Source: Euglena gracilis
Lineage: Eukaryota
Length of the DNA stretch: 64,000 bases
Assembly: GCA_039621445.1 (NCBI GenBank)
Contig: CP154954.1
Span: 32,899,455 to 32,963,454 of the forward strand
Direction of reading: 5' to 3'
In this document: piece by piece, positions 14,295 through 30,067 of the stretch
Layout: the number at the start of each line of letters is the position of its first letter
Numbering within the stretch: the first letter of the stretch is position 1
Notes under the pieces: model-generated
Database searches by the model: none
What the model was told of the DNA's origin: nothing
What the model saw: the letters and a program-made list of their open reading frames with translations, nothing else
Program-made: the position numbers and the translations under genes

Positions 14295-17200
14295 CTCCCG
14301 TCTGTATTTGTGTGTGTGCATGTGTGCCACACACACATATCTACATACTTCTCCCCATACTCCTTCCCAGCACAACTTACCCAGCCAGTTCTTTCCCTCT
14401 CTTGCCAACTTTATCATAACAACAGGGGACTTGCTCCAATTGTCACCGTTTCCGTTCGGGCTGCGGTGATCATCATGGAAAAGTCACAATGATGTCACAA
14501 ACATCGTGTCACAAACATCGTAATTTAAAGCGCAGTGAACGGAAAAGCAAATGACACAAGGTCGAATTTCACACAAACTCTGAAGAGGAGAAACCCCAGC
14601 TTCAGGCTGGGAGGGGGATGACCCCTCCACCATTTCAGCGTTTTGAGTTGGACAAACCTGTGGTCCAAGGAAGGGAGGCCTGGGCCGGGGACTACAGCTT
14701 CGACGAAGGGGCTCAGCTGCAGGCTGTTCTCAGGGACACACACATGCCGACCAGCACCACACATTTTGGCTTCCGCCACAACCTCGATTCAAAAAAATTG
14801 CGACAACCGAACTGGAACTGAAGAGGGCAACGTGACTCCCCAAATATGGAAGCTGGTGTTGGATTTGTCGATCAGGTGTAGAATCCCTACCCATATGCTC
14901 ATTTAAATTTGGTTCCAATTTGCTCATTCAATTTGTATGGTAGCATTTGGAAAGGCGTCCATTACAGAGCAAATTGGACGCCAAATTAAATGAGCAAGGG
15001 GAGGGGAGATGCATGGTTCTGGATACCCCTGGGAAAAAACTGGTGCGAAGCGAAAAAATTCTTGGGCTCATATGCCCCATAATGGTGGTTTCTTGCAAAA
15101 ACAAAAACAAAATCCAACGCATGACTTCTCCGGCTCAAAATGCAAATTTGGTTCCTTGGGGGTCCCAGAACCCACTCAGCCCAAAAGGCGGGGGGGGGGG
15201 TGATCTGAGCCCTCCTCCCCCTGTACAAAACAACGCTCCATTAACACCCTGCGCATAACAGCATGACAATGGATAAAAAACCTTTTTTTTTTGCGCTGGA
15301 AAATGTTATAAATGTGTATTTGATTGGAGAGGGTTGAACTTTTGTGAAGCTCTGAGGCTTCCCGAAATATGCAAATACAAAACATACTGGAGCTTTTCTA
15401 CTTCAAAAATGGCGCTAGAATGGCATTTAATTGAAAGTGATCTTCCTTTGCTCTAAAAACCTCCTCACTTAAATCCCCCCAGGGGTTATAAGAACCTGTT
15501 TGGTGGTCGGTCCGGGGGGGCGGGGGGGGGGTAAGGGGGGGTGGTTATAAATTGAGCCTTGGTGTGTAATGGGAAGAGGTTCAAAATCACCCCCAATTCT
15601 TGCCCTGGGGGGGGCAAACAAGGTATTTTGGGTAACTTCATGGTTCTTTTTGCCAAAAACTGGGAGGTTGGCATGCCCACCACACCTGTTTTTTTGGACA
15701 CTGAGGAGTTTAGCATATTTTGTCTATTGCTTCTTCATCGTTCTTTCCCTCTGGGTGGGGTTGTAAATCACGGTTTGGTAATTGGGCCGGGGGGGGTTAT
15801 AAATGGGTTGATCCCCGAACAAGCCTGATCCACAAACTCCGCATTGCTGACCACAGAAAGATATCCCGCTGGGTCATGGACATGACATGCCATACTGAGC
15901 ACAACAATGCAACGGAATACGACAGAAACACAAATGCTGCAGAGAAAATGAGAAAGAGACGTGCTGTTTGGAGAGGAGGTGAAGAAAAATTGCAAGAGAA
16001 CCCATTTCTGGATGCTCTTTCAGAACGACGGTGAAAGAAAAGCAGTGGGAACACACAGCCAACAGCAGTCGATTGTCTGGCGATGGCAATGCAATGGCGA
16101 CCTTCGTTGGGTCATGACGTGAGTGCGGTATGGTTTCTGTTTGAGCCAAGTTGGGGCCTCCAGCCTGTTAACAGAAAAGAAACTCCGCTGTCCTAGCAGA
16201 TTGAACTAAAATCCCCAAGGAAATGGGCAAGAGTTCGATATCCCTTGGCAAAAAACCAGTTCACATCGGGGAACGATTGTAGCAATTTTGGACCATCGTC
16301 CATCCGCCGAAATCATCAAAAGAATACAAGTTTCGATTTGCTTTAATTTTCGAACCCGCTCGAGCCCCGGAGTGGCCATTGGCCGTTGGATAGTAAAAAG
16401 AAAAGTCCTGCCCCTTACGGTGGGGGAGGTGTGAATTCAGGCTGGACATTTGTGACGTCGCTTTTCTCGAGGGCTTTGGGCATTTCAGAGGAATTCTTGG
16501 GCTGGGGAAATGCTCCTCGGTCAACAAGTGATCATCTCCAACTGGCCAAAGCCTTTGGTGGTTTGTGTAGCTGCGTGAACAGGACGGCTTTGGGAGGTAT
16601 CTGTGACTGCAAGAGGTCTGTTGAATTCGAGACTGCAACCATTCAACACAGCGTCAGAAACAATGAAGCGAACTCTCGAATCTCAATGCGAAGAGCCAAG
16701 CTAGGAAGGGAGGAAGCAAGAGGAAAAGGCACATGACACACAATGATAATGGGACAGCACAGGGTCAAGATGAGGGTCGCTTCTTTTCCGTTGGATGCTG
16801 TTGGAAGGCCCAGACAATGCCATGGGAAAGGCACCAAGCTGGCAGGCCAAGCAACCAAGGACACTTTGAAACACTGCATGAACAAGAATGCACACCGACC
16901 CTCCAGGCAGAAGCCCTCTCGCCATTTTGGTCCGCAGCTGGGCGTGTGGTAAAGGCGGTTGTCCTTGCAAACGACAGGGCTCTGGCCAGGGATGGGCGTT
17001 CCAGTGCTCCCGTCCCCAATCGAAAAAAAAAAAGACGACCCTGAGAAGGACAGACCGGACGGCAGCGCAGGGAGGGGGTCTGTGTCGTCGTGGGCCGGCG
17101 GGATCGCTAAATGGGAGTGCCGAAGAGGGGCCCTGAGGCCCCCAACAGCACCGCCCCTTTGGGGAGGGATCGATGGATGGAGCCAAGCGATCCGTTCCAA

Positions 17201-17454
17201 ATGACTGAAGTCAGATAACCTAATAAAAATTTTTTTATGACACGGCCGGCTTCCGCATGGCTCGCTCAAAAAAGGGACAGTGTTTGTGTATTTTGTGCCC
17301 CTAAACACCCCAACCCACCGACCCAACCGCACCGTGTATGCTTCAATGGCACCCTCTCCCACGGGGACACTTTTACAAGGCAAAAGTCAACCGTGAAGCC
17401 TGATGACTCGAGAGGAGCGGTGGCTGGCGCTGCGACGTGGTATTGGCGGTCCAC

Positions 17455-20400
17455 CTTGTTGAGGAGCCGGTGGCAGGCCGCGGTGAGGAGGAGGGGGCCC
17501 TGCCCGGCCCGGCCTGCCTCCTGGGCCGCCTGGGGGAAACAGCAAAAGAACACACTTGTCGATTGTGCTTCAATTCCGACCCCGTTTGAGCCCCGGATCG
17601 GCCATTGGCTGTGGGATAGTTTAAAAACAAGGAGGCCTGCCCCTTAAGGAAGGTGGGGGGGTGTGAGTTGAGTCTGGGGCTAGACATTTGTGACGTTGCT
17701 TCAGGGATAGGTGGGGGGGAAGCTCACCGCCCCTCGACCAAAAGCAAGCCATGCATTGGCACGACACTCCGGAAGATGGCACCAGATGCAGTGCCTGGAT
17801 TTGAACACAGAACGTCACACCCCACGCTAATGTACCCGCCCCCCCCCCCTGGGTAATTGTCGCGCGACAAATCGGGCAGCACGAAGGGGGGGTGACAATT
17901 TCCCGGGGTGAAAATTTGGCCGGCACAGAGGGGGGTGACAATTGCCCGGGGGCGTCAATTGCCCGGGGGCGTCAATTGCCCGGGGGCGTCAATTGCCCGG
18001 GGGCGTCAATTGCCACCCATGTCGGCCACATTAAATCCAAATGACCAAGAACACCATCTGAAACACCAGTGAACATGCAAAAATGCAGCTATGGTTGTGA
18101 TATTGTGTAGAGCATTTGGTATGTGACATTTCTCCGCACGTTGTACCGAAATAGAGGATCAATCGAGTCGTGTCGGCGAAAAGAAAGTTCACAAACATCT
18201 TCTGTGGGGGGGGTGACAATTGGGCAGCACGGACGGGGGTGACAATTTCCCGGGGTGACAAATTGGCCGGCACAGACAGGGGTGACAATTGCCCGGGGGC
18301 GTCAATCGCCCGGGGGGGGGGGCGGGTAAGCAAAAATGCCACATGCGCGTGCAGCAATTTGCAAATAGGAAATAGCACATGGCATGTGCCGCACGGCAGA
18401 TGCACTGCGGCGCATCTGCTGGCGCCACCGTGACGCCGCGTCGCCTGCGGGCCGGCACACCTCCTGCGCGCCGGCCACCGGGGGGCCCAGGAGGCCCAGC
18501 AGGAGGGCCTCGTGCCCCCGCCCGCACACCGTGGAGAACGCCCCGCCGGCGTCCACCCCGACGCACAGCGGATGGGGCCAGGGCAACCATTGGCAGGGGG
18601 CCTGGGTGGAAGAGTCAGCCAGAGGGGGGGGGGCTGGCTGATCCGGACGTCCCCCACAGACACCAGTGTGGCTCTGGGTAACAGGTGTGGGACTTGGCAG
18701 CCTCCTGGGCGTTGGGGGGGGGGGAAGAGGGTGCGAGTGCACAGGCGAAGAAAACAAAGGGGGCACAGGGTGCGGGACTGATCATAACCCTGTGGATGCA
18801 TATGCGGCGTATATGTATCGATATATGTATATATACATGTATAGATATGTATCTATATATATATCTAGATATCTAGATATATGTATATATGTATGTATGT
18901 GTCGGTCTAACAAGGATGAAATCTTGCCAAAGCAAATGGGGGATTTCTTGGACCCCCACCGGGAGGGGGAGCATACATTCGGCCGGCAGCTGGGCTGGAC
19001 CTGGCCAACGGTTTTCAGGGACCCCAAACCTTCCTCGCACCACTTTGAGCATTTTTTTTTTTTGCACAAATTCAGAAAATATCAGCTGGAATCAGCCAAT
19101 CGACTTTTTATCAACCCCCCCCCCCTCTGAGAAGGGGGCTTCGGTTAATGGGCCAATGGATAGCTGTTGGCTGGGGAAAAAAAACGGGGTGTGGGATTGC
19201 TGGATGATCCCTCCGTGGGTCCCAGCCAGCAGAAGCAGATGGTCTGCTTTAAGCTGTAGCATATAAAAAAAGCTGAAATTGCAAGCAATTTTGTTTGAAG
19301 AACGAAGAAGAAATTACAAAAGAAAAGGGGTCCGGGAATGGCGCATTTCATGAGCCTGTCTGGAAAAATCTGGGTGAATAAATGAATGACATAACTGTTG
19401 AATCCAAACCCACCCCAGAGGGTCTCATGACCCCCTCCAGTTACACTAAGGCCTTTTGTCTGTTATGGCAAGCGCTATCCAACAGTGTCCCCCTGAAAGG
19501 GTCCCATACCCACCCTGTAGTGGAGCTGGGTCTGGTACATTATCAAGGGGGGCATGGTACACACGGGCAAAGATGAGAAATTTTATCTGTGAATAAGAAT
19601 GACAATACCTGCAAGATGGATACTGCACACTCCACTGCCTCATTGGCAGACGCTGTTGGGAACGTCACCAGCATCCCATTCCCTGGAGAGAATGAAAGGG
19701 GGAGGTGCAAGCATCCAACCACTACCAGGGAACACACTTACTGCCTCTGACCGGGGTGACCCCACGGATGACATTGTGGCGACTACCTTGGCAGCGGGGA
19801 AATAATTTCTTCCAATCTTTAAAACCCCATACAATCAGAACCCCTCAAAGACCCTCCCGGAATGAGGTGCTGCAACCTGTTGATGCACTGGGTTACTTTG
19901 TGAGGCACTCCGCAAAAGCATATGCATTGAACGTATGGGCAATATGGCCATTGATTGACAATAAAAAAATATAAAAATTAATTACCAGTTCTATCCTGCC
20001 CGTTTCTCGTGTTGTGTGAGTCGGACTAGCATGAGCAGGGAAACCCATTGCCAAAGCACGGCCGCAGCAGCCGAGGAGCCGTACCAATCCACGGGTAGCA
20101 GGTGCCGCCCACGGCTGCCACCCGTCGGTGGACCACGCCCATCAAGGCGCCGATGCTGTGGGCGACCGAGGCGGCTGGGCTGTTGGAGACGGAGCCAGCC
20201 TAAAGGTGCGGGGTGGCAGGGGCTGGGGGCGAAACATGATCAAATGGGGCAGCCCACAACCCCCTCCCCCCTGGATGATCTCTGGGCAGGTCAACAAAGA
20301 CAGAGATAATCAGGTCTATGGAGACAACCTAACCCCCCCCCCCGGGAAACTGTCACCTGACAGGTTGGCCGGTATCGGGGGCCCTGATGTATGTATGTAC

Positions 20401-23400
20401 GTACATACGTACGTACGTATGTATGTATGTATGTATGCATGCATGTATGTATGTATGTATGTATGTATGTATGTATGTATGTATGTATGTATGTATGTAT
20501 GTATGTATGTATGTATGTATGTATGTATGTATGTATGTATGTATGTATGTATGCATGCATGCATGTATGTATGTGTGCATGCATGCATATATGTATGTAC
20601 GTATGTGTGTATGTATGTGTGTATGTATGTATGCATGTATGTATGTACGTATGTAAGTAGGTATATATGAATGTATGTATGTATGCATGTATGTATGTAT
20701 GTATGTCTGTATATATGTATATATGTATATATGTGTGTATGTATGTGTGTACGTATGTATGTATGTATGTATGTATGTATGTATGTATGTATGTATGTAT
20801 GTATGTATGTACGTATGTATGTATGTATGTATGTATGTATGTATGTATGTATGTATGTATGTATGTATGTATGTATGTATGTATGTATGTATTGTATGTA
20901 TGTATGTGTGCATGCATGCATGTATGTATGTACGTATGTGAGTATGTATGTATGTATGTATGTATGCATGCATGTATGTATGTACGTATGTACGCATGTA
21001 TGTATGAATGTATGTATGTATGCATGTATGTATGTATGCATGTCTGTATATATGTATATATGTATGTAGGTATGAATGTATGCATGCATGCATGTATGTA
21101 TGTATGTATGTATGTATGTATGCGTGAATGTATGTATGTATGTATGCATGTATGTGTGTACGTACATACGTACGTATGTAAATATGTATGTATGTATGTA
21201 CCTCCCCCCCCCTCAGCCCAATGAATGTATGTATGTATGTATGTATGTATGTATGTATGTATGTATGTATGTATGTATGTATGTATGTATGTATGTATGT
21301 ATGTATGTATGTATGTATGTATGTATGTATGCATGTATGTATGTATGTATGTATGCATGCATGAATGTATGCATGCATGTATGTATGCATGTATGTATGT
21401 ATGTATGTATGTGTGTACTCTACGAATGTGCAGTTTTACATCCATACAAATATACACTTATGTGAATGTGCAATTATAAATACATCCAAATTCATCCCAT
21501 TGGGATCCTTTGTCCCTTTTCCCAAGTCAGTGGTCAGAGAGCAGGGCAGGCACTGCCCAGCACACCAGCTGCCTGAGGGACCCCACGGTGAGGGGCTGGA
21601 CCCCGATGAACGCCACCACCAGCTCTGCAGCGGTCCCTTGCTCTGTCAGGGGCAGGCTGGCTGTGCCCCTGGAGACTCCGAATGAATGCGGATGTGACCA
21701 ATCAAAGGATGACAGGTAAAAAAAATGCAAAGATGTTCCATGAAATGGCTATGATCGGGACAACTATCAACCAATCACAGAGATGAATTCTGCAATTTTG
21801 CATTTTTTTGCAATTTTTTTGGATCAATGTTTGAAAGCTGCCACATTTTTGACAAATTTTATCGAAAATTGTGTCACAGAGGACTTTGGGTCATCCTGGG
21901 GTGTTTCATTTCGAGAATTCCACTTTATCATCCCCCTGACTTATAACCCACCCTTTTGGCTGACTAGCCAAACCACATCACAACCATATCGGCTTTAAAT
22001 GGGTGGGCTTTAATGTTGCATTTTTTTTCCAACTCAATCCGCAGAGGAACCAAAATTTTAGTCCCAGCCACAATTTTTTTTTAGAACTTTCATCCCCCCC
22101 CTCCAAACCCTACTGCGGCACGATGAAAATTAAGCAAAAATTGCCGAAACTTGTGACTTTGGAAACAAAAAAACATCCAAATTTTTTCGGGTTGTCTGGG
22201 GCAAAAAGCCGTCAGAGGCCCTTCGAGAAGGGGGCACCCTTGGGCAGGGTTGAGGCAACACTCATCCTGGTCAGGGGGTCGATTCCATGAGCCAGCCGAT
22301 GGGTGACGACCGGTGGAGCGTACCGCTCCGCCACGCCGACTGCCTCCTGCGGCGGCAACCAGGGGTGCAGAGGGGAGGTCTGGTGGTGGCGGGGGGGGGG
22401 GGCAGGTCACGTAGGAGGTCTGGGGCAGGGCGGTCCTTGAGCAAAAAAAAAGAGGTATTGCACAAATTGGCGCCCTCACTGGCAATTTCCCCCCACCCCC
22501 ACCCCCACTGATGCGCACGGATGCCATTTTTTCAAAGATGGCAAAAAATGGGTGATTTTGGCTGTGCCACGGGGGGGGGGGGGGCTGCAACCCACCGGAC
22601 CCCCCCTTCCCCCCGCCCCCCACTAACCCTCACTCAACCCTCCTCCTTTTTGAAAACTTCTCATTCTTCGATAAACTTCTCATTCTTCGATGTTTTCCCT
22701 CTGAAAAATGGTCTAAAGTGTGAAATCTTTGGCTGTGGGGGGATGGGACGCGCCCCCCCCCCCCAAATAACAATCAAAGTGCCGTTTTCGGACTTTTTTG
22801 TGAAAGAGGTTTTAACTGTTTTCTTTTTGACCCCACAAATGACCCCAATGAAATGCAAACACATTTCACAGCAATTCGAAAAATGCACACAAGAACAGGA
22901 AATAATTTTTCCGGTTACCCCCCCCACTCACTAAGGCTGGTGGGAGCGCAATATATGAAAAAAAAAACACACTAAACTTTCTGGTGGTCTAAACCAGCAC
23001 ATTGCCAAAAATCCACCGGGAAATTTTGGCAAAAATTGGTCGACTTTGGGCAAATAAAATTCTTTCTGGTGCCCTTGGGCCGGAGCCAAGCAACCCAAAA
23101 CATCAAATAAAAATGTGTTTTATTCTTCGACTCTTAATTTTCGACCCCGTTCGGCGCACGGACTGACCATTGGCTGGGCCTCAAGCCTAAGGGCAGTCCT
23201 TCAGAGTTGGTGCTTAAAAAGAGCATCCTGTCCCTTATGGACCATCTGGTGGTATTCGGTTGATCAATGCAGGGATTTTGAGACGGCGGACAAATCAAAG
23301 AACAAATCAAAAAGATATCCAAACAGCAATCCAATTTGGCCTAAATGCCTAAATGTCCCGCCCCCTGGCTTGAAGCCTGCCTCCCTCTGCAGCGGGCACA

Positions 23401-24572
23401 TTGACCATTCAAACTACATGAAATTGGGGGGGGGAATTACGCACACACACCAGGAGGCTGCCGAGCAGTGGGGACAGCTGGACGCCGTAGTCCTCATCGA
23501 TCCCGTCGACGGACTTTACGGACAATGCGTGGCCACCGAACCTGGCCAAGACCAGGGGCCACAGCACACGAGACCCTCGCTCCAAAACGACTCAGTTTTT
23601 ACCAAACCGTCGTGGCTCTCAGATTGAAGACATATTCGCACACTTTTACACAATACGAATGCAAATCTCACTCCATCCCAGGGGAAAATGTGGGTTGGAC
23701 CTCTCAGTTTCCTGAACGGAAAGAACAAAAGAAACCAAACCAACGCCATTATGGGCTCCTACAAATATGTATTCAGCACCACACCAGCAGGGGACAACAT
23801 TTATCATTGTGGAAATAGAAAAATGTTGATGAGAACGGCTCACACAAGCTCTCCCTCTGCCTCCTCCTCCACCGTCCCACCTCTTCCTCCACACAACCTA
23901 TACCGGCAATTATTTTTGAGCCTTTCCACTCTCAATGTCTGGGCCTCGGATGGCGTTCTGTAATGGTCAGCACATTCGCCACAAAAAAAAACTCACGCCC
24001 AACGTCACTGCAAATGAAAATTTCCTCTGAAGGAAGGGAAAGATATAAAACAATAACGTCCAGAGACACACACCTCCGGGTCGAAATGGTCTCTCTCTGC
24101 GAGAAAAGAGATATACTGCTGTCCGGGGGGGGGGGGTCACAAATCCTGGTCGACACCGAGGAGGGGGAGGGAGGAACAATTCAAAAAATAATTATAATTC
24201 GCATCAGGAATTAAAGGAACAGAGCAAGGATTGGTGCAGGCTGGTGGTCTGGAGGAAAGAGGCTGGAAATCAGAATTGCTGGCAGTCTTTAAAACAAAAA
24301 AGTGAAAATGAAAAATCCGAGTCTCTTAAAGACCGCCCTCCAAAAGCAAGGTATGAAAATTACAAAAAATTGAAGACAGAAGCAACTGGATTTCCTTTAA
24401 TATGCCAAGGAAGAACCTTGGAGGAAAATGGGAATTGAGCAGGAGTTTGCTGAATTGACTCTCGTCCACGTGTCTTGGTGGTTTGGATTGCCACCCCCCA
24501 GCAACACCCGAGGCCTCCCCCACTGTCCCTGGGCTCCAGGCTTCCCTGGCACCCACCCACCCACCCACCCGC

Positions 24573-24653
<81 letters not shown>

Positions 24654-25665
24654 GCAGCAGCGACACGCGGTGGTGCCGGGGGTCCCGAGCGATCTTGGCG
24701 TACAGCTCGTCCACTGCCGCCTCCGGCCCCTCTGCGGGGAGTGCCGGACAGGAGAGGAAATAATTCCAACGGTTTTCTGGGACACTCAAGGACTTAGCAA
24801 TGCTGGCGGGGGGATGACTGCCATCTACACATACTCACTGCGTCTGAATTTTGGAGGACATTATTTTGCATGCTTGAAGTGAGCAAGAAGGTATTTTAGG
24901 GTGAATTCCCGGAAGGTTTTTTGACTGGGAGGGGTGCATTGTATTATTACTTAAAAAATTGGGAGACTCATGCCGCCTTCAAATGTGGGGCTTAGTGACA
25001 ACCTCAGGCATGACTGCTCCAGAGCGCATTCACCAAACGCTGTTGCGCCTGGAGCTGTCCATGGTGGCATGTGGGGGTACAGCACTGCACACCAATGACT
25101 TGGAAGAAAGCGCCGGGCTGCGGGATGGAAAGCAGGCAGCTGGTGAGGCGCTTCTTCTGGTTGGCAACGCGGCCGTACAGCCCGATGTAAGCCACCTGCA
25201 TGTGTGTGTGTGTGTGTGTGTGTGGTGCGTGTGTGCGTGTTGCGTGCGTGTGTGCGTGCTCGGCACAGATGCCAATGCAACAATGGCTGTGGCATATGGG
25301 GTGAGTGGGGTAGGGGGATCCCCAGTCTGCTGTCCCATCTCCTCAATTCTGCCATACCACCTCACCAAAAGCACATATGCCAGGCAGGGAACCAGCAAAC
25401 TCACCAAAACTGTGGGACACCAAAAGACCAGAAATCGGGGGGGGTGTAAATGTTGTGCACTTATGTGCGTGCGTTGTGTGTGCGTACGCGCGTGTGTTGC
25501 GTGTGTATGAGTGTATGCGCTGTTGTGTGCGTTTGTGAATTGTAAATGTGTGTGTTGTGTTTGTGTGTTGTGTTTGTGCTGCACGTTGTGTGCGTGCGTG
25601 TGTCTGTGTGTTTGCATGTTGTAAATTTGTGTGAGTTGTGCTGTTGTTGTAGATGTTGTTGCTGT

Positions 25666-25736
<71 letters not shown>

Positions 25737-28700
25737 TGCTGCTGTTGCTGTTGTTGCTGTTGTTGCTGCTGTTGTTGATGTGTGTTTTGAGTTGTTCGTG
25801 TGCGTGTTTGTCTGTGTCTCTGTGCGTCTCTTTCCCTCTCTCTCTCTCTCTCTCTGTGTGTGCACATGTGTGTGTGGGGGGACAAAGGAGGCTTGGACTT
25901 TGACATTAAGAAGGCCCTTCAGCTTCACCCACCAAAGACAATGACTCCCAGATTCACACCTCTGGGGGGCGGGGGGGGGGGCGGGGGGGGGTCTGCCCGT
26001 CACACACCTCCTGTGCGGACATCGGCTCCTTCCAGAATGAGATGTAGGCGCCGCCAGGGGAGCCGGAAAGGGGGGGGACAAGCCCCGTCAGCAGGGTTCG
26101 ATATAAGGAGAGGAGGGGGGGGGTGGTCCGGACCCCCCCCCTGCGGGCCGGGGGGGGGGGGGTGGGGGGGACACCCCCCCACCTAAACAGTGGCGCTGTC
26201 AGGGTGACCGAAAATATTTGGCCCCCCAAAACGACCAAAAGTGCCATTTTGGGCACTTTTTGGGCAAAAATTGGCCAAAAATGCAAAAAATTTTCGGTGC
26301 GAAGCGCCGGAGGAAAAAGTTGACCCTTTTTGGGGGGGGGTCCCGGGTACCCCCCGAGGGTCGGTCCGGACCCCCCTTGCAGGTGGGGGGGGGTGGTCCG
26401 GACCCCCCCTGCGGGCCGGGGGGGGGGGGGGGGGGGTACACCCCCCCACCTAAACCATGTACGCCCTCCTTATATCGAACCCTGCCCGTCGGTCCTGAGT
26501 GCAGGTTCACTTGGCCTCAACCCACCCACCCACTCTGGAAACCCTTGTGGGGTGGCACCAGTGTTGAACGAATCTATGGTCCAGGAAACTAATATAAATC
26601 AATGTGACGTTTCAATCAGAAACCATTAAAGAAACACGGAGGATGTACACCCCGGAGTGTCTTGTGCCCTTCAATGCACTTGAGGTATGGTTATTCACGC
26701 CAGGACACTTTCAGTAAGATTTTATCAACTGACACACACAGAAAGAGACGCCTGTTTACCTTCCTTTTTTTATGGTGGAAAATTCGAACAAGAATATCAA
26801 CCTTCAAAGGCAAAAAAAAAAACCACTCAAATGGGAAACACTGAGATTTGAAAAACGCACTATAAAAACACCGACTGACATGGGAGGTGCTGCGGTGTCC
26901 ATGGTGCTGGGCATCGACCTCCCCACTGGCATAAAACGCTGAAAGCAAATTGCCGAGTTTTTTTGGAACCAGAAGAATGATTTTTTCCCTGGGACCCAGA
27001 GGAAAAACAAGTCCCCACAGTCCTGCAAAAAATCTGAAAATACGAGACAATTCCCCCCCAAAACTACCCTCCCCTGGAGGTTTCCAGCAACGGACCCAAA
27101 AATAAGACCCGGGCCCAATTTTGGGAGGGGGTCAGAGGGGGGCGGCTTCCTCCTGCCCTGGGCCAGGGACACCTCGGGCTGGGGGCCCAGCGCGGCCAGC
27201 TCTCGGGCTGTCCGCGTCTCCTCCTCGATGCGCCGGTAGAGGTGGTCCCGGTACCACGCCAGCTCCTCCAGCCGCTCCTCCAGCCTGGGGTGGGGGGCAG
27301 GGGGGGTCAACCCGAGTCGGGGTTCAGCCTGACCAACCCCCCCCCCCCGGGGGGGGGGCTCGGATTTCAGGCCCGGTGGGGTTGGGTGGCCAAAACTATT
27401 TTTGCCAGGAAGAGAATTTTTTTAAGGCATTTTTAAGCATTTTCACACATTCTAAGCATTTGGCCCAGATTTTAGGGCCATTTTAATTCAATCACGGGAT
27501 TTTAAGGTTTTTTGAAAAGCTCCTACGGTGGAGCAAAATGAAATCACAAAACCTCGGCAAAAGGAAAACAGTTGAAGAACTGATTTGGGTGGATAGACAA
27601 CGATGCCAGAAAATCATTCTTTCCCCAACGTTGGTTCAATGCATGGATGGACCGCCTTGCTGCAGCCTTGGACCTCCTGAAAAGTAATGTCAAAAGTGCC
27701 TTACCCCCCCCCCCTATGTCCAATGACCGGTAACCTCTGTCCTCTGACCGGGGGGGGTGGTCGTTGGACATAGGGTAGTGACCAAAAAGGCGTCCTCTGA
27801 CCGGGGGGGGGTGGTCGTTGGACATGGGGTCAAAAGAAAGTTGGTGGGTACCAGGGTCCCTACCCACCCAAAGATGCCCAAATTTTCCCTTCCGGCGCTT
27901 CGCGCCGAAAATTTTGGGCAATTTCGACAAATTTTTGTCCAAAAAGTGTCAAAAATGGCATTTTGGCCAAATTTTTGGCCATTTTTTGGGCAAAATTTTT
28001 CGTCCCGGCGCTTCACGCCGGGACGAAAAAAATTGATCAAACCTCCGAAAAGGTGTCCTCTGGCCGGGGGGGTGGTCATTGGACATAGGGGGGTCGTTGG
28101 ACATAGGAGGGGGGTAAAAATTGAAGTGCCTGGATGAACCAAAGGGAGAGGGGGAAAGACCTTGAAAGCTTTGAGGTGGCCAATCTTGCACCGGGGCCTT
28201 ATTTGCCCCATTTGCAGAACTGGGTAACCTTCCATTCTTTTTATTTCGCGGCTTGGGTCCAGGTCTTTGAGGTTCTGCTTATGCCGTCCATAGCCCACAG
28301 CTGTTTTGCGCTACCATCTTCTCAGGTTGAAACTCGGGGCATCAAAGCAAATTCTTATAACTGTTGAAAGAGTGCGGACCATGTTTTGTGTGCTGTCCCC
28401 CCAAACAACCAACTGGCCTGTCCCAACCCCGGTCATCGATTGGGGGTGAGGAATGATCAAAAATGTTGAGACCGGCTTTTGTTGATTGTGAGGTTGGAGG
28501 CATACTCTTGTTCCTTCGCATGGTCCCGGCTTTCTATCACAGTGCACTGCTGGACATGCAGCTCCGCTGAGCACAAAGCATTTGCCAAGACTGGGAGTTG
28601 AAAAAATCCCATCCCATCCCATCCTGACAGTGATCGGCCAGGGAAGAGCCCAGAAAGGGGAAAAGGTCAGATATTAAATTTGGTATCAAACCAGACAGAG

Positions 28701-29781
28701 CTGAGAAAATGGTAACAGCGACAGCAGCAGGGAACACACTGAGAAACACCATGCTCATAATATGTATAATGTACATAATATGTAATATACAAATGAATAA
28801 TACACATAATATATATAATATATGATATACGTATGCATAATATGTATAATATGTATACAATATATAATGTACATTTATTTATGTATGCAATACAATATAA
28901 ATTAAACACATAATAATACTATTATACCATTATTTTTTATTTGTTTTCCCTTTACAAGGCCCTGTCCACAGATTTGGTATCTTTCTCATTTAGCCAGCCG
29001 ACTTCAGGATGGCCAAGTGAATTTCCCGGGCGGAGGTCAACCTACCGACCTACCCAACCCACCGGTCAAAAAGCCCTTCAAAGCCCTTTGGTATTTTTTC
29101 TTCTTCGTCGGAACAGCTTCTGTATACCACAGTGATAAGCAGCGTCTAGTAATAAATGACGTTGCAGGCAGGCCATCTGCTAGGCAACAGGCTCACAGCT
29201 CTCTTGCTGACTTATAATCACTACCGCAAAATCCCCCTACCCAAAATCCCCCTGGTTTCCAGTGATCTTGGCGGTTTTTTTTTGACCCAAAACACCCGAA
29301 AAATCCCCGCGAGCAGAGGTTTCTCTCAGGACCAAAAAGAGGAAGTTGCAGGGAAGGGGGGTGCAGACCCACCCACCCACCGGGGCTCAGGGGGACCCAC
29401 TTTTGGGGTCAATTTTGGGTACAAAATTTTTTTCCTGCCTCTGAGAGGGACCCCCCCCCCAGGGGGGGCTTGGCTGGGACCCACTGGGGGGGGGGGTCCT
29501 GGTGGGTCCCCGTGGGTACGAAACTTAAAAGATTTCTCTGCCCACAAGAGGCACAGAATAAAAATTTTGGGGGAATGCTTTCTTGCATAACAGCTGATCC
29601 ATGCCAGGGAGGGATGGAGCGCCCCGAACACCCACCGACGTCAAAAACACGCACAAACACGCCACGCGGAGAGGCACAATGATTTGCATAACTCGGTGTT
29701 GGGGGTTTGGATTGAAAAGGCAGGCAAAGCCTTGGTGAGGTCCCGGAGCACCGTCTGCACTTGGTCCTGCAGCGCTTCCAT
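17455..29781 (-). CDS. Multi-exon gene: N-terminal coiled coil + one BLUF domain + degenerate class III adenylyl-cyclase-like domain (PAC/bPAC-like); 3' end unresolved
   Basis: Phase-consistent exons (minus): 29731-29781, 29128-29179, 28506-28566 (these three less certain), 27164-27284, 26008-26049, 25093-25195, 24652-24731, 24074-24096, 23451-23541, 22262-22346, 21566-21642, 20085-20199, 19609-19682, 18461-18601, and 17529 down to 17455 or further. Spliced protein includes VSLAYISFWKEPMSAQEVAYIGLYGRVANQKKRLTSCLL...FFQVIEGPEAAVDELYAKIARDPRHHRVSLLRRETISTRRF (BLUF), then ERYAPPVVTHRLAHGIDPLT...GGTCYPWIGNGMLVTF...LCVGVDAG...GLLGPPV, colinear with Beggiatoa bPAC as recalled. Confidence 0.85.
20387..21412. 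repeat. (TATG)n microsatellite, ~1 kb
   Basis: Read directly from the sequence. Confidence 0.97.
23451..27175 (-). CDS. BLUF (blue-light FAD sensor) domain, split over six exons
   Basis: Motifs LAYIS, ANQ..LT..LL, FFQVIEG....VDELY..I..DPRH and RRF appear in the right order and spacing once spliced. Confidence 0.92.
26050..27163 (-). other. Non-conventional (euglenid-type) intron inside BLUF beta-1
   Basis: Borders CTG|gccCAGgg ... ccCTGgcggc|GCC place CAG at +4..+6 and CTG at -8..-6. Removal yields VSL-AYIS. Confidence 0.85.
26092..26484. mobile_element. hAT-type MITE nested in a non-conventional intron
   Basis: Perfect 19-bp TIR cagggttcgatataaggag. Flanks cccgtcag / cccgtcgg match at 7 of 8 positions. 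Confidence 0.9.
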
Positions 29782-29950
29782 CCCGGGGCCTCACACCGCC
29801 CGGAGGAAAAAGACGGCACACGGCATGCGACGCACTGCGGGTTTGGGTGGCACGGGTTGTGTTGGAGAATTGAACTGTCATTGGGGCGCTCCAGAAGAAA
29901 AAATCGGGGGCCATTTTCTATGCTCCCAGGCTTAACCTCCCACACTGGTA

Positions 29951-30067
29951 CCCCCCCCCCCGGGAAACTGTCACCTGACAGGTTGGCCGGTACCGGGGAC
30001 CCTGACAGTTTCCCGGGCGGGACCCTGACAGGTTCTTGGGCATGACAGTTTCCCGGGGGGGGGGGGG
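29951..30067. mobile_element. Short MITE flanked by TA (Tc1/mariner-like)
   Basis: ta|C11gggaaactgtca ... tgacagtttcccG(n)|ta. Relatives at ~20333-20386 and ~30795-30930; a similar family lies at ~17833-18330. Confidence 0.8.

What the first reader, a model, noticed from the sequence alone, without database searches (positions are those of the whole stretch)
17455..29781. Single-BLUF PAC-like photoreceptor with a catalytically dead cyclase (light-sensing pseudo-cyclase)
Seen: a 15-exon spliced ORF with coiled coil, BLUF and cyclase-like regions. Known: Euglena PAC-alpha/beta have two BLUF + two cyclase domains, bacterial bPAC has one of each, and class III cyclases need two metal-binding Asp, a substrate Lys and an N...R pair. 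Against bPAC as recalled, FSDI becomes FIGV, TKFIGD becomes YPWIGN and DAVNVAAR becomes PPVAGAQE, so every catalytic position is lost while the fold, the BLUF-cyclase linker (ERYAP...GIDPLT) and the frame are kept. Inference: a non-catalytic light-sensing scaffold or an inhibitory heterodimer partner for active PACs. Extra PAC paralogues may already be catalogued, so novelty needs checking.
Basis: partly seen in the sequence, partly recalled or inferred. Interest (0 to 1): 0.88.

Follow-up and report, generated by a model that had tools for sequence, protein, structure and literature searches.

The report
Light-sensor protein with dead cyclase
This is a real, transcribed and spliced gene for a small relative of the blue-light-activated cAMP-making enzymes of Euglena that keeps the light-sensing part but has lost every residue needed to make cAMP, so it probably passes on light signals by binding other proteins rather than by chemistry.

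Summary
A minus-strand gene runs from an ATG at 29781 to a stop at 17109-17107, not 17455. It has 14 coding exons plus a spliced 3'UTR and encodes 383-399 aa. RNA-seq reads confirm the last seven exons and their joints. The first eight are inferred from frame, splice signals and collinear homology.

Scored in scripts, the spliced product matches a 41-sequence BLUF profile at 56.9 bits. It matches a 43-sequence profile of single-unit BLUF-cyclase (PAC) proteins at 108.2 bits, in one alignment from the BLUF domain through the linker into the cyclase domain. A generic cyclase profile gives only 13-18 bits, where solved cyclases score 62-206.

The BLUF Tyr, Asn and Gln are kept. All five canonical cyclase residues are replaced: Asp to Gly, Lys to Pro, Asp to Asn, Asn to Ala, Arg to Glu. 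None of 88 other BLUF-cyclase units lacks all five. Euglenid PAC halves each keep a complementary three.

A second expressed haplotype differs at 8 synonymous and 6 non-synonymous sites (pN/pS about 0.28), which argues against a decaying pseudogene. My best reading is a non-catalytic light sensor, a new variant of the PAC family. Fold, flavin binding and partners are untested. The spliced protein could not be given to the fold tools.

The parts
29693..29781 (-). Exon 1: start codon at 29781, about 29 codons (start MEALQDQ...). Inferred, not read-checked.
   Evidence: ATG with an in-frame TGA 9 nt upstream; a GT donor after ..ACCGA keeps the frame into exon 2. From the ATG to 20200 is 731 nt. 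The two contigs carry 800 and 799 nt upstream of 20200, which leaves a leader of about 69 nt.
27163..27284 (-). Exon 2: helical, heptad-like stretch (LEERLEELAWYRDHLYRRIEEE...) and the first residues of BLUF strand 1 (..VSL). Inferred.
   Evidence: AG acceptor after a pyrimidine run. The 3' end was set where a nonconventional intron with pairing ends (CCAGGG/CCCTGG) keeps the frame. The BLUF profile alignment starts at VSLAYIS, across this joint.
26008..26048 (-). Exon 3: BLUF strand 1 with the conserved Tyr (AYIS). Inferred.
   Evidence: GT donor after ..CAGGAG. Aligns to BLUF profile positions 12 onwards. Tyr column kept.
25093..25195 (-). Exon 4: BLUF helix 1 to strand 3, with the conserved Asn (VANQ) and Gln (FFQVI|EG). 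Inferred.
   Evidence: AG acceptor and GT donor. Third-best ORF piece of the window against the PAC profile, positions 15-50. Asn and Gln columns kept.
24652..24731 (-). Exon 5: BLUF helix 2 and strand 4 (EGPEAAVDELYAKIARDPRHHRVSLLR). Inferred.
   Evidence: Pfam BLUF E 1.5e-5 on the enclosing ORF. BLUF structures 1X0P, 2BYC and 2KB2 are among the five PDB hits, with 1X0P and 2BYC best. Best ORF piece of the window against both profiles.
23451..23591 (-). Exon 6: BLUF strand 5 region and the start of the connector helix. The 5' end is open (23591, 23579 or 23541). Inferred.
   Evidence: GT donor at 23450. The three in-frame variants score 108.2, 111.7 and 108.3 bits against the PAC profile. 23579 gives a canonical GT-AG intron.
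22270..22346 (-). Exon 7: connector ('handle') with ERYAPPVV...GIDPLT. Inferred.
   Evidence: AG acceptor. Aligns without a gap to EKYTQPTV...QNPLL of a bacterial BLUF-cyclase protein. Fourth-best ORF piece against the PAC profile, positions 121-143.
21567..21644 (-). Exon 8: cyclase strand 1, VVAFIGV where the family has F-x-D-I (first metal Asp replaced by Gly). 3' end read-confirmed, 5' end inferred.
   Evidence: 33 raw reads (15 in X21, 18 in X22) and one contig each in X1 and X4 run on from 20200 into the sequence that starts at 21567. Alignment.
20084..20200 (-). Exon 9: cyclase helix 1-2 and strand 2, ending ..GGTCYPWIG.
   Evidence: Read-confirmed joints; GT-AG intron on the minus strand.
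19608..19681 (-). Exon 10: begins N-GMLVTFP. The joint makes YPWIGN, so the Lys is Pro and the second metal Asp is Asn.
   Evidence: Joint 19681|20084 seen in 17 and 12 raw reads and in contigs of X1 and X4. Second-best ORF piece against the PAC profile. Best of 1856 pieces against the cyclase profile.
18679..18703 (-). Exon 11: 25-nt microexon.
   Evidence: Joints 18572|18679 and 18703|19608 in raw reads of X21 and X22 and in the X1 contig.
18460..18572 (-). Exon 12: cyclase strands 4-5 and helix 4, ending ..LLGPPVAGAQE (transition-state Asn is Ala, Arg is Glu).
   Evidence: Read-confirmed joints. Alignments. Carries 6 of the roughly 40% variant sites.
17426..17528 (-). Exon 13: last part of the cyclase-like domain.
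   Evidence: Joints 17528|18460 (GT-AG) and 17143|17426 (nonconventional) in reads and contigs.
17047..17143 (-). Exon 14: last 11 codons, stop codon at 17109-17107, then 3'UTR.
   Evidence: Read-confirmed joints. Translation of the joined exons.
16580..16766 (-). Exon 15: 3'UTR exon. Its 3' limit is approximate, and there are minor alternative joints at 16765|16923 and 16950|17061.
   Evidence: Joint 16766|17047 in 18 and 19 raw reads and one X4 contig; depth ends near 16580.

Best explanation
The locus encodes a single-unit member of the photoactivated adenylyl cyclase (PAC) family. It consists of a short helical N-terminus, one BLUF flavin domain, the PAC-type connector and one class III cyclase-homology domain.

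Shown: the gene is transcribed and spliced into an open frame. The BLUF keeps the Tyr, Asn and Gln that define the flavin pocket and photocycle. The cyclase-like domain has none of the five canonical catalytic residues.

Inferred: the protein binds flavin and still changes conformation in blue light, but cannot make cAMP. It therefore acts as a light-dependent binding module (a pseudoenzyme). The most likely route is dimerisation through its connector and cyclase-like domain, with itself or with another PAC-family protein. Which partner it has, and whether it inhibits, anchors or relays, is open.
For: Expression and splicing. Raw RNA-seq reads of two runs and contigs of two further runs give seven joints across 16658-20200, plus a run-on from 20200 into 21567. 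Introns have no depth apart from a repeat.

Open frame. 14 exons give 399 aa (395 or 383 with the other exon-6 starts), with a stop in exon 14.

BLUF. 56.9 bits, E 8e-20, against a profile of 41 bacterial BLUF domains; 2000 shuffles reach at most 3.3 bits. Pfam and PDB hits on exon 5 alone. Tyr, Asn and Gln are kept, as in 56, 61 and 61 of 66 single-unit relatives.

PAC architecture. One collinear alignment of 54.3 bits, E 6e-19, to a bacterial protein that Pfam calls BLUF + Guanylate_cyc. 108.2 bits, E 2e-35, against a 43-sequence PAC profile, covering product residues 70-311; shuffles reach at most 2.7 bits. Best single match is the second unit of an 853-aa two-unit PAC-like protein: 77.5 bits over residues 68-380.

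Dead site. D1 to G, K to P, D2 to N, N to A, R to E. 0 of 88 other units have 0 of 5. OaPAC Asp156 and Asp200 are the metal/ATP ligands (PMC11533990, passages read).

Constraint. 14 coding variants in the RNA reads: 8 synonymous and 6 non-synonymous over 127 synonymous and 338 non-synonymous sites. pN/pS is about 0.28; one-sided binomial P = 0.018.
Against: The cyclase-like domain is so diverged that Pfam sees nothing in any single exon at E <= 1. PDB searches with three cyclase exons found no cyclase. Generic cyclase profiles give only 18.2 and 13.0 bits, and the PAC profile alignment stops at residue 311 of 399.

The end branch is four times the median, 2.93 against 0.72. That fits relaxed constraint as well as a new function.

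The BLUF strand-5 Trp/Met pair is not cleanly aligned; Met is Leu in every alignment. The same change occurs in 5 of 66 single units and in several euglenid second units.

The variant count is small. It mixes common and rare variants, leaves out reads under 95% identity, and may mix alleles with paralogues.

No orthologue or identical protein was found with two exon queries, so conservation across species is unknown.

Exons 1-8 are not read-checked. Fold, flavin binding and any partner are untested.
Confidence: 0.6

Rival explanations
1. Transcribed but functionless relic: a PAC-family duplicate that lost its catalytic residues and is drifting, with a frame that is still open by chance.
For: Very long branch, 2.93 against a median of 0.72, and at most 28% identity to any relative. 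The C-terminal third of the cyclase domain is barely recognisable. There is an insertion or uncertainty in the BLUF strand 4-5 region. No orthologue was found. The 3'UTR carries an intron 60 nt after the stop, which in many eukaryotes marks a transcript for decay.
Against: An open frame of 383-399 codons across 14 exons. The BLUF Tyr/Asn/Gln and the connector are well kept. Expressed variants have an excess of synonymous changes, pN/pS about 0.28, P = 0.018. Exon depth is steady in four runs of three studies.
Confidence: 0.22
2. Obligate partner subunit that completes an active site with another PAC-family chain, as the two cyclase halves of euglenid PACs do with each other.
For: In the two-unit relatives each half supplies a complementary set: in most of the 11 proteins tabulated, unit 1 supplies K/N/R and unit 2 supplies D/K/D. 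The best match is to such a second unit.
Against: This protein keeps neither set, 0 of 5, so it cannot donate residues to either half-site. At most it could occupy an interface.
Confidence: 0.1
3. Still an enzyme: either a cyclase using non-canonical residues, or a domain recruited to another reaction or to nucleotide binding.
For: Pseudoenzymes are sometimes re-wired; this is general knowledge and no result here points to it. The second metal position is Asn, which can still bind a metal weakly.
Against: All five canonical positions are changed, two of them to Gly and Pro, and the strand 7-8 hairpin with its Lys is missing.
Confidence: 0.04
4. Gene-model artefact: the upstream exons belong to a different transcript, or the true product is shorter.
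For: The exon-6 start and the exon 2/3 joint are inferred.
Against: Contigs of 1262 and 1009 nt carry 800 and 799 nt upstream of 20200, close to the 731 nt of modelled CDS plus a leader. One unbroken alignment to PAC proteins crosses the joints of exons 3 to 10. The four best PAC-profile ORF pieces in the window are collinear.
Confidence: 0.04

Closest known systems
Bacterial single-unit photoactivated adenylyl cyclases (bPAC/BlaC of Beggiatoa, PDB 5M27; OaPAC of Oscillatoria, PDB 4YUS), represented here by two gammaproteobacterial proteins (L104:624-1676:-, L105:357-1421:+)
   Same: One BLUF, then a connector, then one cyclase-homology domain, in about 350-400 aa. The alignment is collinear at 54.3 bits. 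FFQVIEG is identical. The connector has the same length from E(K/R)Y to the F-x-D-I strand. Pfam confirms that the two references are BLUF + Guanylate_cyc.
   Different: The references have FFSDI, LKFIGD and DEVNVAAR where this protein has VAFIGV, YPWIGN and PPVAGAQE. This protein has an extra helical N-terminus of about 65 aa, a shorter C-terminus without the Lys hairpin, and a far lower cyclase score: solved PACs score 122-127 bits against the 9-cyclase profile, this protein 18.
Euglenid two-unit PAC subunits and PAC-like paralogues (BLUF-cyclase-BLUF-cyclase): E. gracilis alpha-like P84739 (P0023), E. stellata beta (P0009), E. gracilis EG_transcript_3059 (P0035), an unnamed 853-aa protein (P0036)
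   Same: Same family and, judging by the intron types, the same kind of organism. Best pairwise match is to unit 2 of P0036, 77.5 bits over residues 68-380. It shares with second units the loss of Asn/Arg and of the Lys hairpin, and with first units the loss of both Asp; compare VVAFIHV in E. longa unit 1.
   Different: One unit instead of two, about 400 aa instead of 800-1019. It lacks both complementary residue sets (0 of 5, against 3 of 5 in most halves). In the tree it does not fall inside the clade of 28 rows that holds all 22 halves of the two-unit proteins, although its place is unsure because of the long branch.
Degenerate BLUF-cyclase proteins in the sequence library (P0020, P0072, P0098, and the P0047 cluster of 1209-aa multidomain proteins from Pseudomonadota bins)
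   Same: BLUF intact, cyclase residues largely lost (1 of 5 kept). P0020 falls below the Pfam cyclase cut-off and P0098 has no cyclase hit. BLUF with a crippled cyclase is therefore not unique to this gene.
   Different: Each still keeps one canonical residue. None is close to this protein: none is among its 40 best matches. None has been described, as far as my searches show.
Naegleria gruberi NgPAC1-4 (single-unit eukaryotic PACs)
   Same: A eukaryote of the same supergroup with one BLUF and one cyclase per chain.
   Different: That note reports them as active light-switched enzymes. They were not compared here.
DYBLUP/MOT7, the dynein-associated BLUF protein of cilia
   Same: A eukaryotic BLUF protein without enzymatic output, in a flagellate setting.
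   Different: A different architecture. PMC7909887 (passages read) reports no clear orthologue in Euglena. This protein aligns to PACs through connector and cyclase domain.

Membership tests
Photoactivated adenylyl cyclase (BLUF + class III cyclase) | BLUF domain with the flavin-pocket Tyr, Asn and Gln | tested here: met
   56.9 bits, E 8e-20, against a 41-sequence BLUF profile. Pfam BLUF on exon 5. Tyr, Asn and Gln columns kept.
Photoactivated adenylyl cyclase (BLUF + class III cyclase) | BLUF, connector helix/handle and cyclase domain collinear in one chain | tested here: met
   A single alignment covers residues 71-310 against a bacterial PAC and residues 70-311 against the PAC profile at 108.2 bits. 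This rests on an exon model of which exons 1-8 are inferred.
Photoactivated adenylyl cyclase (BLUF + class III cyclase) | Two metal-binding Asp in the cyclase domain | tested here: not met
   Gly and Asn at these columns; 58 and 62 of 66 single-unit relatives have Asp. The Asn lies at a read-confirmed joint.
Photoactivated adenylyl cyclase (BLUF + class III cyclase) | Substrate Lys and transition-state Asn/Arg | tested here: not met
   Pro, Ala and Glu; 61, 58 and 47 of 66 single-unit relatives have Lys, Asn and Arg.
Photoactivated adenylyl cyclase (BLUF + class III cyclase) | Blue-light-stimulated cAMP synthesis | not testable with these tools
   Needs the recombinant protein.
Euglenid PAC alpha/beta type | Two BLUF-cyclase units per chain with complementary half-sites | tested here: not met
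   One unit, 383-399 aa. 0 of 5 residues, against 3 of 5 in most halves.
Class III nucleotidyl cyclase domain (Pfam PF00211) | Significant match to the family profile | tested here: inconclusive
   No Pfam hit on any single exon at E <= 1. The spliced product could not be given to the Pfam tool. My own profiles of 9 and 67 cyclase domains give 18.2 and 13.0 bits, with shuffles reaching at most 7.4 and 6.7. The curated Pfam cut-off is 21.9 bits on a different profile.
Class III nucleotidyl cyclase domain (Pfam PF00211) | Cyclase fold (beta-alpha-beta-beta-alpha-beta core, dimer) | not testable with these tools
No identical library protein was found.
DYBLUP/MOT7 | Homology outside the BLUF domain to DYBLUP | not tested
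   No DYBLUP sequence was fetched. The region outside the BLUF aligns to PAC connector and cyclase instead. PMC7909887 reports no clear Euglena orthologue.

The most novel reading that the evidence does not exclude
A eukaryotic BLUF pseudo-cyclase that works as a light-switched adaptor. In the dark or in the light it docks through its dead cyclase domain and connector onto catalytic PAC subunits or PAC-like paralogues, and so tunes, caps or anchors the photoreceptor array of the flagellar swelling. That would be a light-gated regulator of a light-gated enzyme, and a member of a wider, undescribed class of BLUF proteins with crippled cyclase domains, of which the library holds at least four more.
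Probability: 0.25. Interest if true: 0.75.

Novelty: new variant of a known kind. Interest (0 to 1): 0.55.

Why it matters
Euglena phototaxis is the textbook case of a BLUF-cyclase photoreceptor, and bacterial PACs are widely used optogenetic tools. A natural PAC relative that keeps the light switch and the connector but has no catalytic residue at all would matter in three ways.

- It would show that the BLUF-to-cyclase conformational relay can be reused for protein-protein signalling.
- It would give a natural non-catalytic control or dominant-negative scaffold for PAC work.
- It would add a candidate regulator to a photoreceptor organelle whose make-up beyond PAC alpha and beta is poorly known.

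It also warns that the 49 'PAC' transcripts counted in a Euglena transcriptome by similarity (PMC8227486, passage read) need not all be cyclases.

Tried and rejected
- **Whole genome.** None is held for this window.
- **RNA runs.** No RNA holder listed in the index search. Evidence came instead from laying two raw RNA-seq runs and two contig runs.
- **Laid stretch.** I laid only 16000-20340. The tool turns away stretches with a long repeat, and a 1-kb (ATGT)n array lies at 20387-21417.
- **Single-exon searches.** Pfam on ten ORF pieces hit BLUF only. PDB searches with cyclase exons 8, 9 and 12 found no cyclase. BLUF exon 4 alone found nothing.
- **Identical or orthologous proteins.** Queries with the exon 12 ORF (proteins of 280 aa or more) and the exon 9 ORF (101 aa or more) found none. 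The library does hold Euglena gracilis and E. longa transcript-derived proteins. The third search was not spent.
- **AT-rich 'TLIYISF' piece at 26590.** Rejected as BLUF strand 1; the GC-rich AYISFW exon at 26048 fits instead.
- **Eight alternative gene models.** Six were out of frame through my own coordinate slips: the first try at the 23541 exon-6 start and the five conventional-donor models for exon 2. They say nothing. The 23541 variant was redone.
- **Alignment of a library PAC with the separate exons (A2).** It came out mis-aligned and was not used.
- **First ORF picks for L005 and L010.** They were antisense; corrected.
- **Profile search of genome contigs with A1.** A single protein was used instead. 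None of the 59 loci it returned had a BLUF upstream.
- **Tree.** The placement next to a BLUF-cyclase-kinase fusion (P0004, SH-aLRT 89) is not trusted because of the long branch. The AU test of membership in the clade of two-unit proteins did not finish in two runs of 288 s.
- **Papers.** No paper holds both 'Euglena' and 'PAC-like'. Of the 15 of 176 papers listed for BLUF with pseudo-cyclase, pseudoenzyme or related terms, none describes such a protein. Searches gave nothing on a single-BLUF dead cyclase in Euglena. Supplementary tables were closed, including the list of 49 PAC transcripts in PMC8227486, so this gene may already be listed there.
- **DYBLUP/MOT7.** Considered and set aside.

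Full report
**1. What is there**

The region is GC-rich, repeat-laden DNA in which short GC3-rich ORF pieces on the minus strand lie far apart. One piece (24400-24834) reaches Pfam BLUF at 25.5 bits, E 1.5e-5, cut-off 25. Nine other pieces, including all the cyclase-like ones, hit nothing relevant at E <= 1. No whole genome is held, and the scan had no earlier notes on this place.

**2. Transcription and splicing**

The index search listed 24 runs. Nineteen contig runs hold 8-13% of the sampled words, one holds 68%, and four are raw RNA-seq runs of the same species label.

The read tool turns away stretches with a long repeat, and a 1-kb (ATGT)n array lies at 20387-21417. I therefore laid only 16000-20340, on two contig runs and two raw RNA-seq runs.

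- Depth falls on discrete blocks, and introns are empty except for a dispersed repeat at 17885-18320.
- The joints define exons 20084-20200, 19608-19681, 18679-18703 (a 25-nt microexon), 18460-18572, 17426-17528, 17047-17143 and 16766 down to about 16580.
- Each joint is seen in 11-31 raw reads per run or in contigs.
- On the minus strand three introns are GT-AG. Three are nonconventional, with ends that can pair. This is the intron mix known from euglenids (my knowledge).
- The reads are unstranded. The strand follows from the GT-AG introns and the frame.
- Reads and contigs run on from 20200 into sequence that starts at 21567 (15 and 18 raw reads, plus one contig each in X1 and X4). This fixes the 3' end of the next exon upstream.
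- Contigs of 1262 and 1009 nt carry 800 and 799 nt beyond that joint.

**3. Gene model**

Joining the confirmed exons gives one open frame that ends with a stop at 17109-17107.

Upstream I placed exons by frame, splice signals and homology: 21644-21567, 22346-22270, 23591-23451, 24731-24652, 25195-25093, 26048-26008, 27284-27163 and 29781-29693.

- The ATG at 29781 has an in-frame TGA 9 nt upstream.
- From the ATG to 20200 is 731 nt, which leaves about 69 nt of leader in the 800-nt contig part.
- The exon 2/3 intron is modelled as nonconventional, with CCAGGG/CCCTGG ends like the confirmed ones. It keeps the frame, and the BLUF profile alignment begins exactly across it.
- The exon-6 start is open. 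23591, 23579 (clean GT-AG) and 23541 give 399, 395 and 383 aa, and score 108.2, 111.7 and 108.3 bits against the PAC profile.

The spliced protein could not be handed to the Pfam, fold or library tools, so all scoring of it was done in scripts.

**4. Reference sets**

- *Cyclase domains.* I fetched 10 matches from plasmid pSymA with PF00211 and used nine. A further 59 loci came from genome contigs.
- *BLUF domains.* 61 of 401 gammaproteobacterial genomes searched had a BLUF match. From the loci fetched I took 41 BLUF domains.
- *Bacterial PACs.* Two of those ORFs are BLUF-cyclase fusions. Pfam confirms both as BLUF + Guanylate_cyc.
- *PAC family.* With one of the two I searched the 1.84-billion representative library. 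130 proteins scored E <= 1e-30, and the best 150 were returned. They include the E. gracilis PAC alpha-like protein (P84739), E. stellata PAC beta, E. longa, a diplonemid, Entosiphon, and three E. gracilis transcript-derived PAC-like proteins.

**5. What the product is**

| Comparison | Score | Shuffle maximum (2000) |
|---|---|---|
| 41-sequence BLUF profile, residues 68-145 | 56.9 bits, E 8e-20 | 3.3 bits |
| One bacterial PAC, residues 71-310 | 54.3 bits, E 6e-19 | not run |
| 43-sequence single-unit PAC profile, residues 70-311 | 108.2 bits, E 2e-35 | 2.7 bits |
| Unit 2 of an 853-aa two-unit PAC-like protein, residues 68-380 | 77.5 bits | not run |
| 9-sequence cyclase profile | 18.2 bits | 7.4 bits |
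| 67-sequence cyclase profile | 13.0 bits | 6.7 bits |

- The alignment to the bacterial PAC is a single one. It runs from the BLUF through the connector into the cyclase domain, without a gap from E(R/K)Y to the first cyclase strand.
- The 60 solved cyclases listed score 62-206 bits against the 9-sequence profile, and OaPAC and bPAC 122-127. The cyclase-like domain here is homologous but extremely diverged.
- Over all 1856 ORF pieces of the window, the four best PAC-profile matches are exons 5, 10, 4 and 7 of this gene, in collinear order. No second PAC-like gene lies in the window.

**6. Catalytic and photochemical residues**

I aligned 88 other BLUF-cyclase units: 66 from single-unit proteins and 22 halves of two-unit proteins.

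- The product has Gly, Pro, Asn, Ala and Glu where single-unit relatives have Asp (58 of 66), Lys (61), Asp (62), Asn (58) and Arg (47).
- No other unit has 0 of 5.
- Four single-unit proteins keep only one. Two of these have a sub-threshold Pfam cyclase hit or none at all.
- In most of the 11 two-unit proteins tabulated, unit 1 lacks both Asp but keeps Lys/Asn/Arg, and unit 2 keeps Asp/Lys/Asp but lacks Asn/Arg and the Lys hairpin. These are complementary half-sites, as in mammalian cyclases (my knowledge).
- This protein combines the losses of both halves.
- Asp156 and Asp200 of OaPAC are the metal/ATP ligands (PMC11533990, passages read).
- In the BLUF domain Tyr, Asn and Gln are kept. The strand-5 Trp/Met region aligns ambiguously, and Met is Leu. 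The same change occurs in 5 of 66 single units and in several euglenid second units.

**7. Is it under constraint?**

The raw reads carry a second sequence form at roughly 40% frequency. Of 15 listed sites in exons 9-14, one lies in the 3'UTR. Of the 14 coding sites, 8 are synonymous and 6 are not. With 127 synonymous and 338 non-synonymous sites, pN/pS is about 0.28, and a one-sided binomial test gives P = 0.018. Dropping the four rarer variants gives P = 0.03.

This is a small sample, and it may mix alleles with paralogues. It still leans against neutral decay.

**8. Origin**

In a quick maximum-likelihood tree of 89 units the product has the longest branch, 2.93 against a median of 0.72. 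It sits beside a BLUF-cyclase-kinase fusion, outside the supported clade of 28 rows that holds all the two-unit halves. The tool itself warns that such a placement is unsure. The AU test did not finish. Origin is therefore open: a diverged half of a euglenid PAC, or an older single-unit line.

**9. What is known**

- A Euglena transcriptome paper counts 49 PAC-annotated transcripts (PMC8227486, passage read), so extra PAC-like genes are catalogued by similarity.
- Two exon queries found no identical or close protein in a library that does hold Euglena transcript-derived proteins.
- Searches for 'Euglena' with 'PAC-like', and for BLUF with pseudo-cyclase or pseudoenzyme terms, gave no description of such a protein.
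- DYBLUP/MOT7 has a different architecture, and is reported to have no clear orthologue in Euglena (PMC7909887, passages read).

**10. Verdict**

The pseudo-cyclase reading is well supported at sequence level: 0 of 5 catalytic residues, an intact BLUF triad, expression, and a synonymous bias.

The proposed roles as scaffold or inhibitor are untested. So are the fold, flavin binding and orthologues. I rate it a new variant of a known kind, of moderate to good interest.

Noticed in passing
17885-18320: A dispersed repeat inside intron 12 has contig word-depth up to 13,242 (X1) and 3,563 (X4), against roughly 90-445 on the exons. It holds 17-nt and 43-nt tandem units, and similar G-rich units recur elsewhere in the window (for example 29974-30034).
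   Followed up: no
20387-21417: A (ATGT)n array of about 257 copies, 87% matching, fills most of intron 8.
   Followed up: partly
18679-18703: A 25-nt microexon confirmed by reads. It is flanked upstream by a GT-AG intron and downstream by a nonconventional intron of 106 nt.
   Followed up: yes
18573-18678; 17144-17425; 16767-17046: Three read-confirmed nonconventional introns without GT-AG ends. Their 5' and 3' ends can pair over 6-7 bases (for example CCACCGC with GCGGTG, and AGGGTC with GACCCT).
   Followed up: partly
16580-17143: The 3'UTR is spliced about 60 nt after the stop codon. It has minor alternative joints: 16765|16923 in 7 and 3 reads, and 16950|17061 in 4 reads of one run.
   Followed up: no
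24574-24651: An (AC)39 run on the plus strand, (GT)n on the coding strand, starts right at the donor site of exon 5. The exact donor within the run cannot be read from the DNA alone.
   Followed up: no
17099-20180 (12 or more sites): About 40% of RNA reads carry a second form of the transcript. It is either a second allele or a near-identical paralogue; the contigs break at exon 12, where six such sites cluster.
   Followed up: partly
library proteins P0020, P0047, P0072, P0098: 4 of 66 single-unit BLUF-cyclase representatives keep only 1 of 5 catalytic residues. P0047 stands for a cluster of 162 multidomain proteins of about 1200 aa from Pseudomonadota bins, and P0098 has no Pfam cyclase hit. 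This may be an undescribed set of BLUF proteins with crippled cyclase domains.
   Followed up: partly
library protein P0004: A 652-aa protein from a metagenome assembly joins BLUF, a cyclase domain and a protein kinase domain in one chain (Pfam).
   Followed up: no
29790-29840: The modelled 5' leader holds a short upstream ORF (an ATG about 44 nt before the start codon, ending at the TGA 9 nt upstream of it).
   Followed up: no
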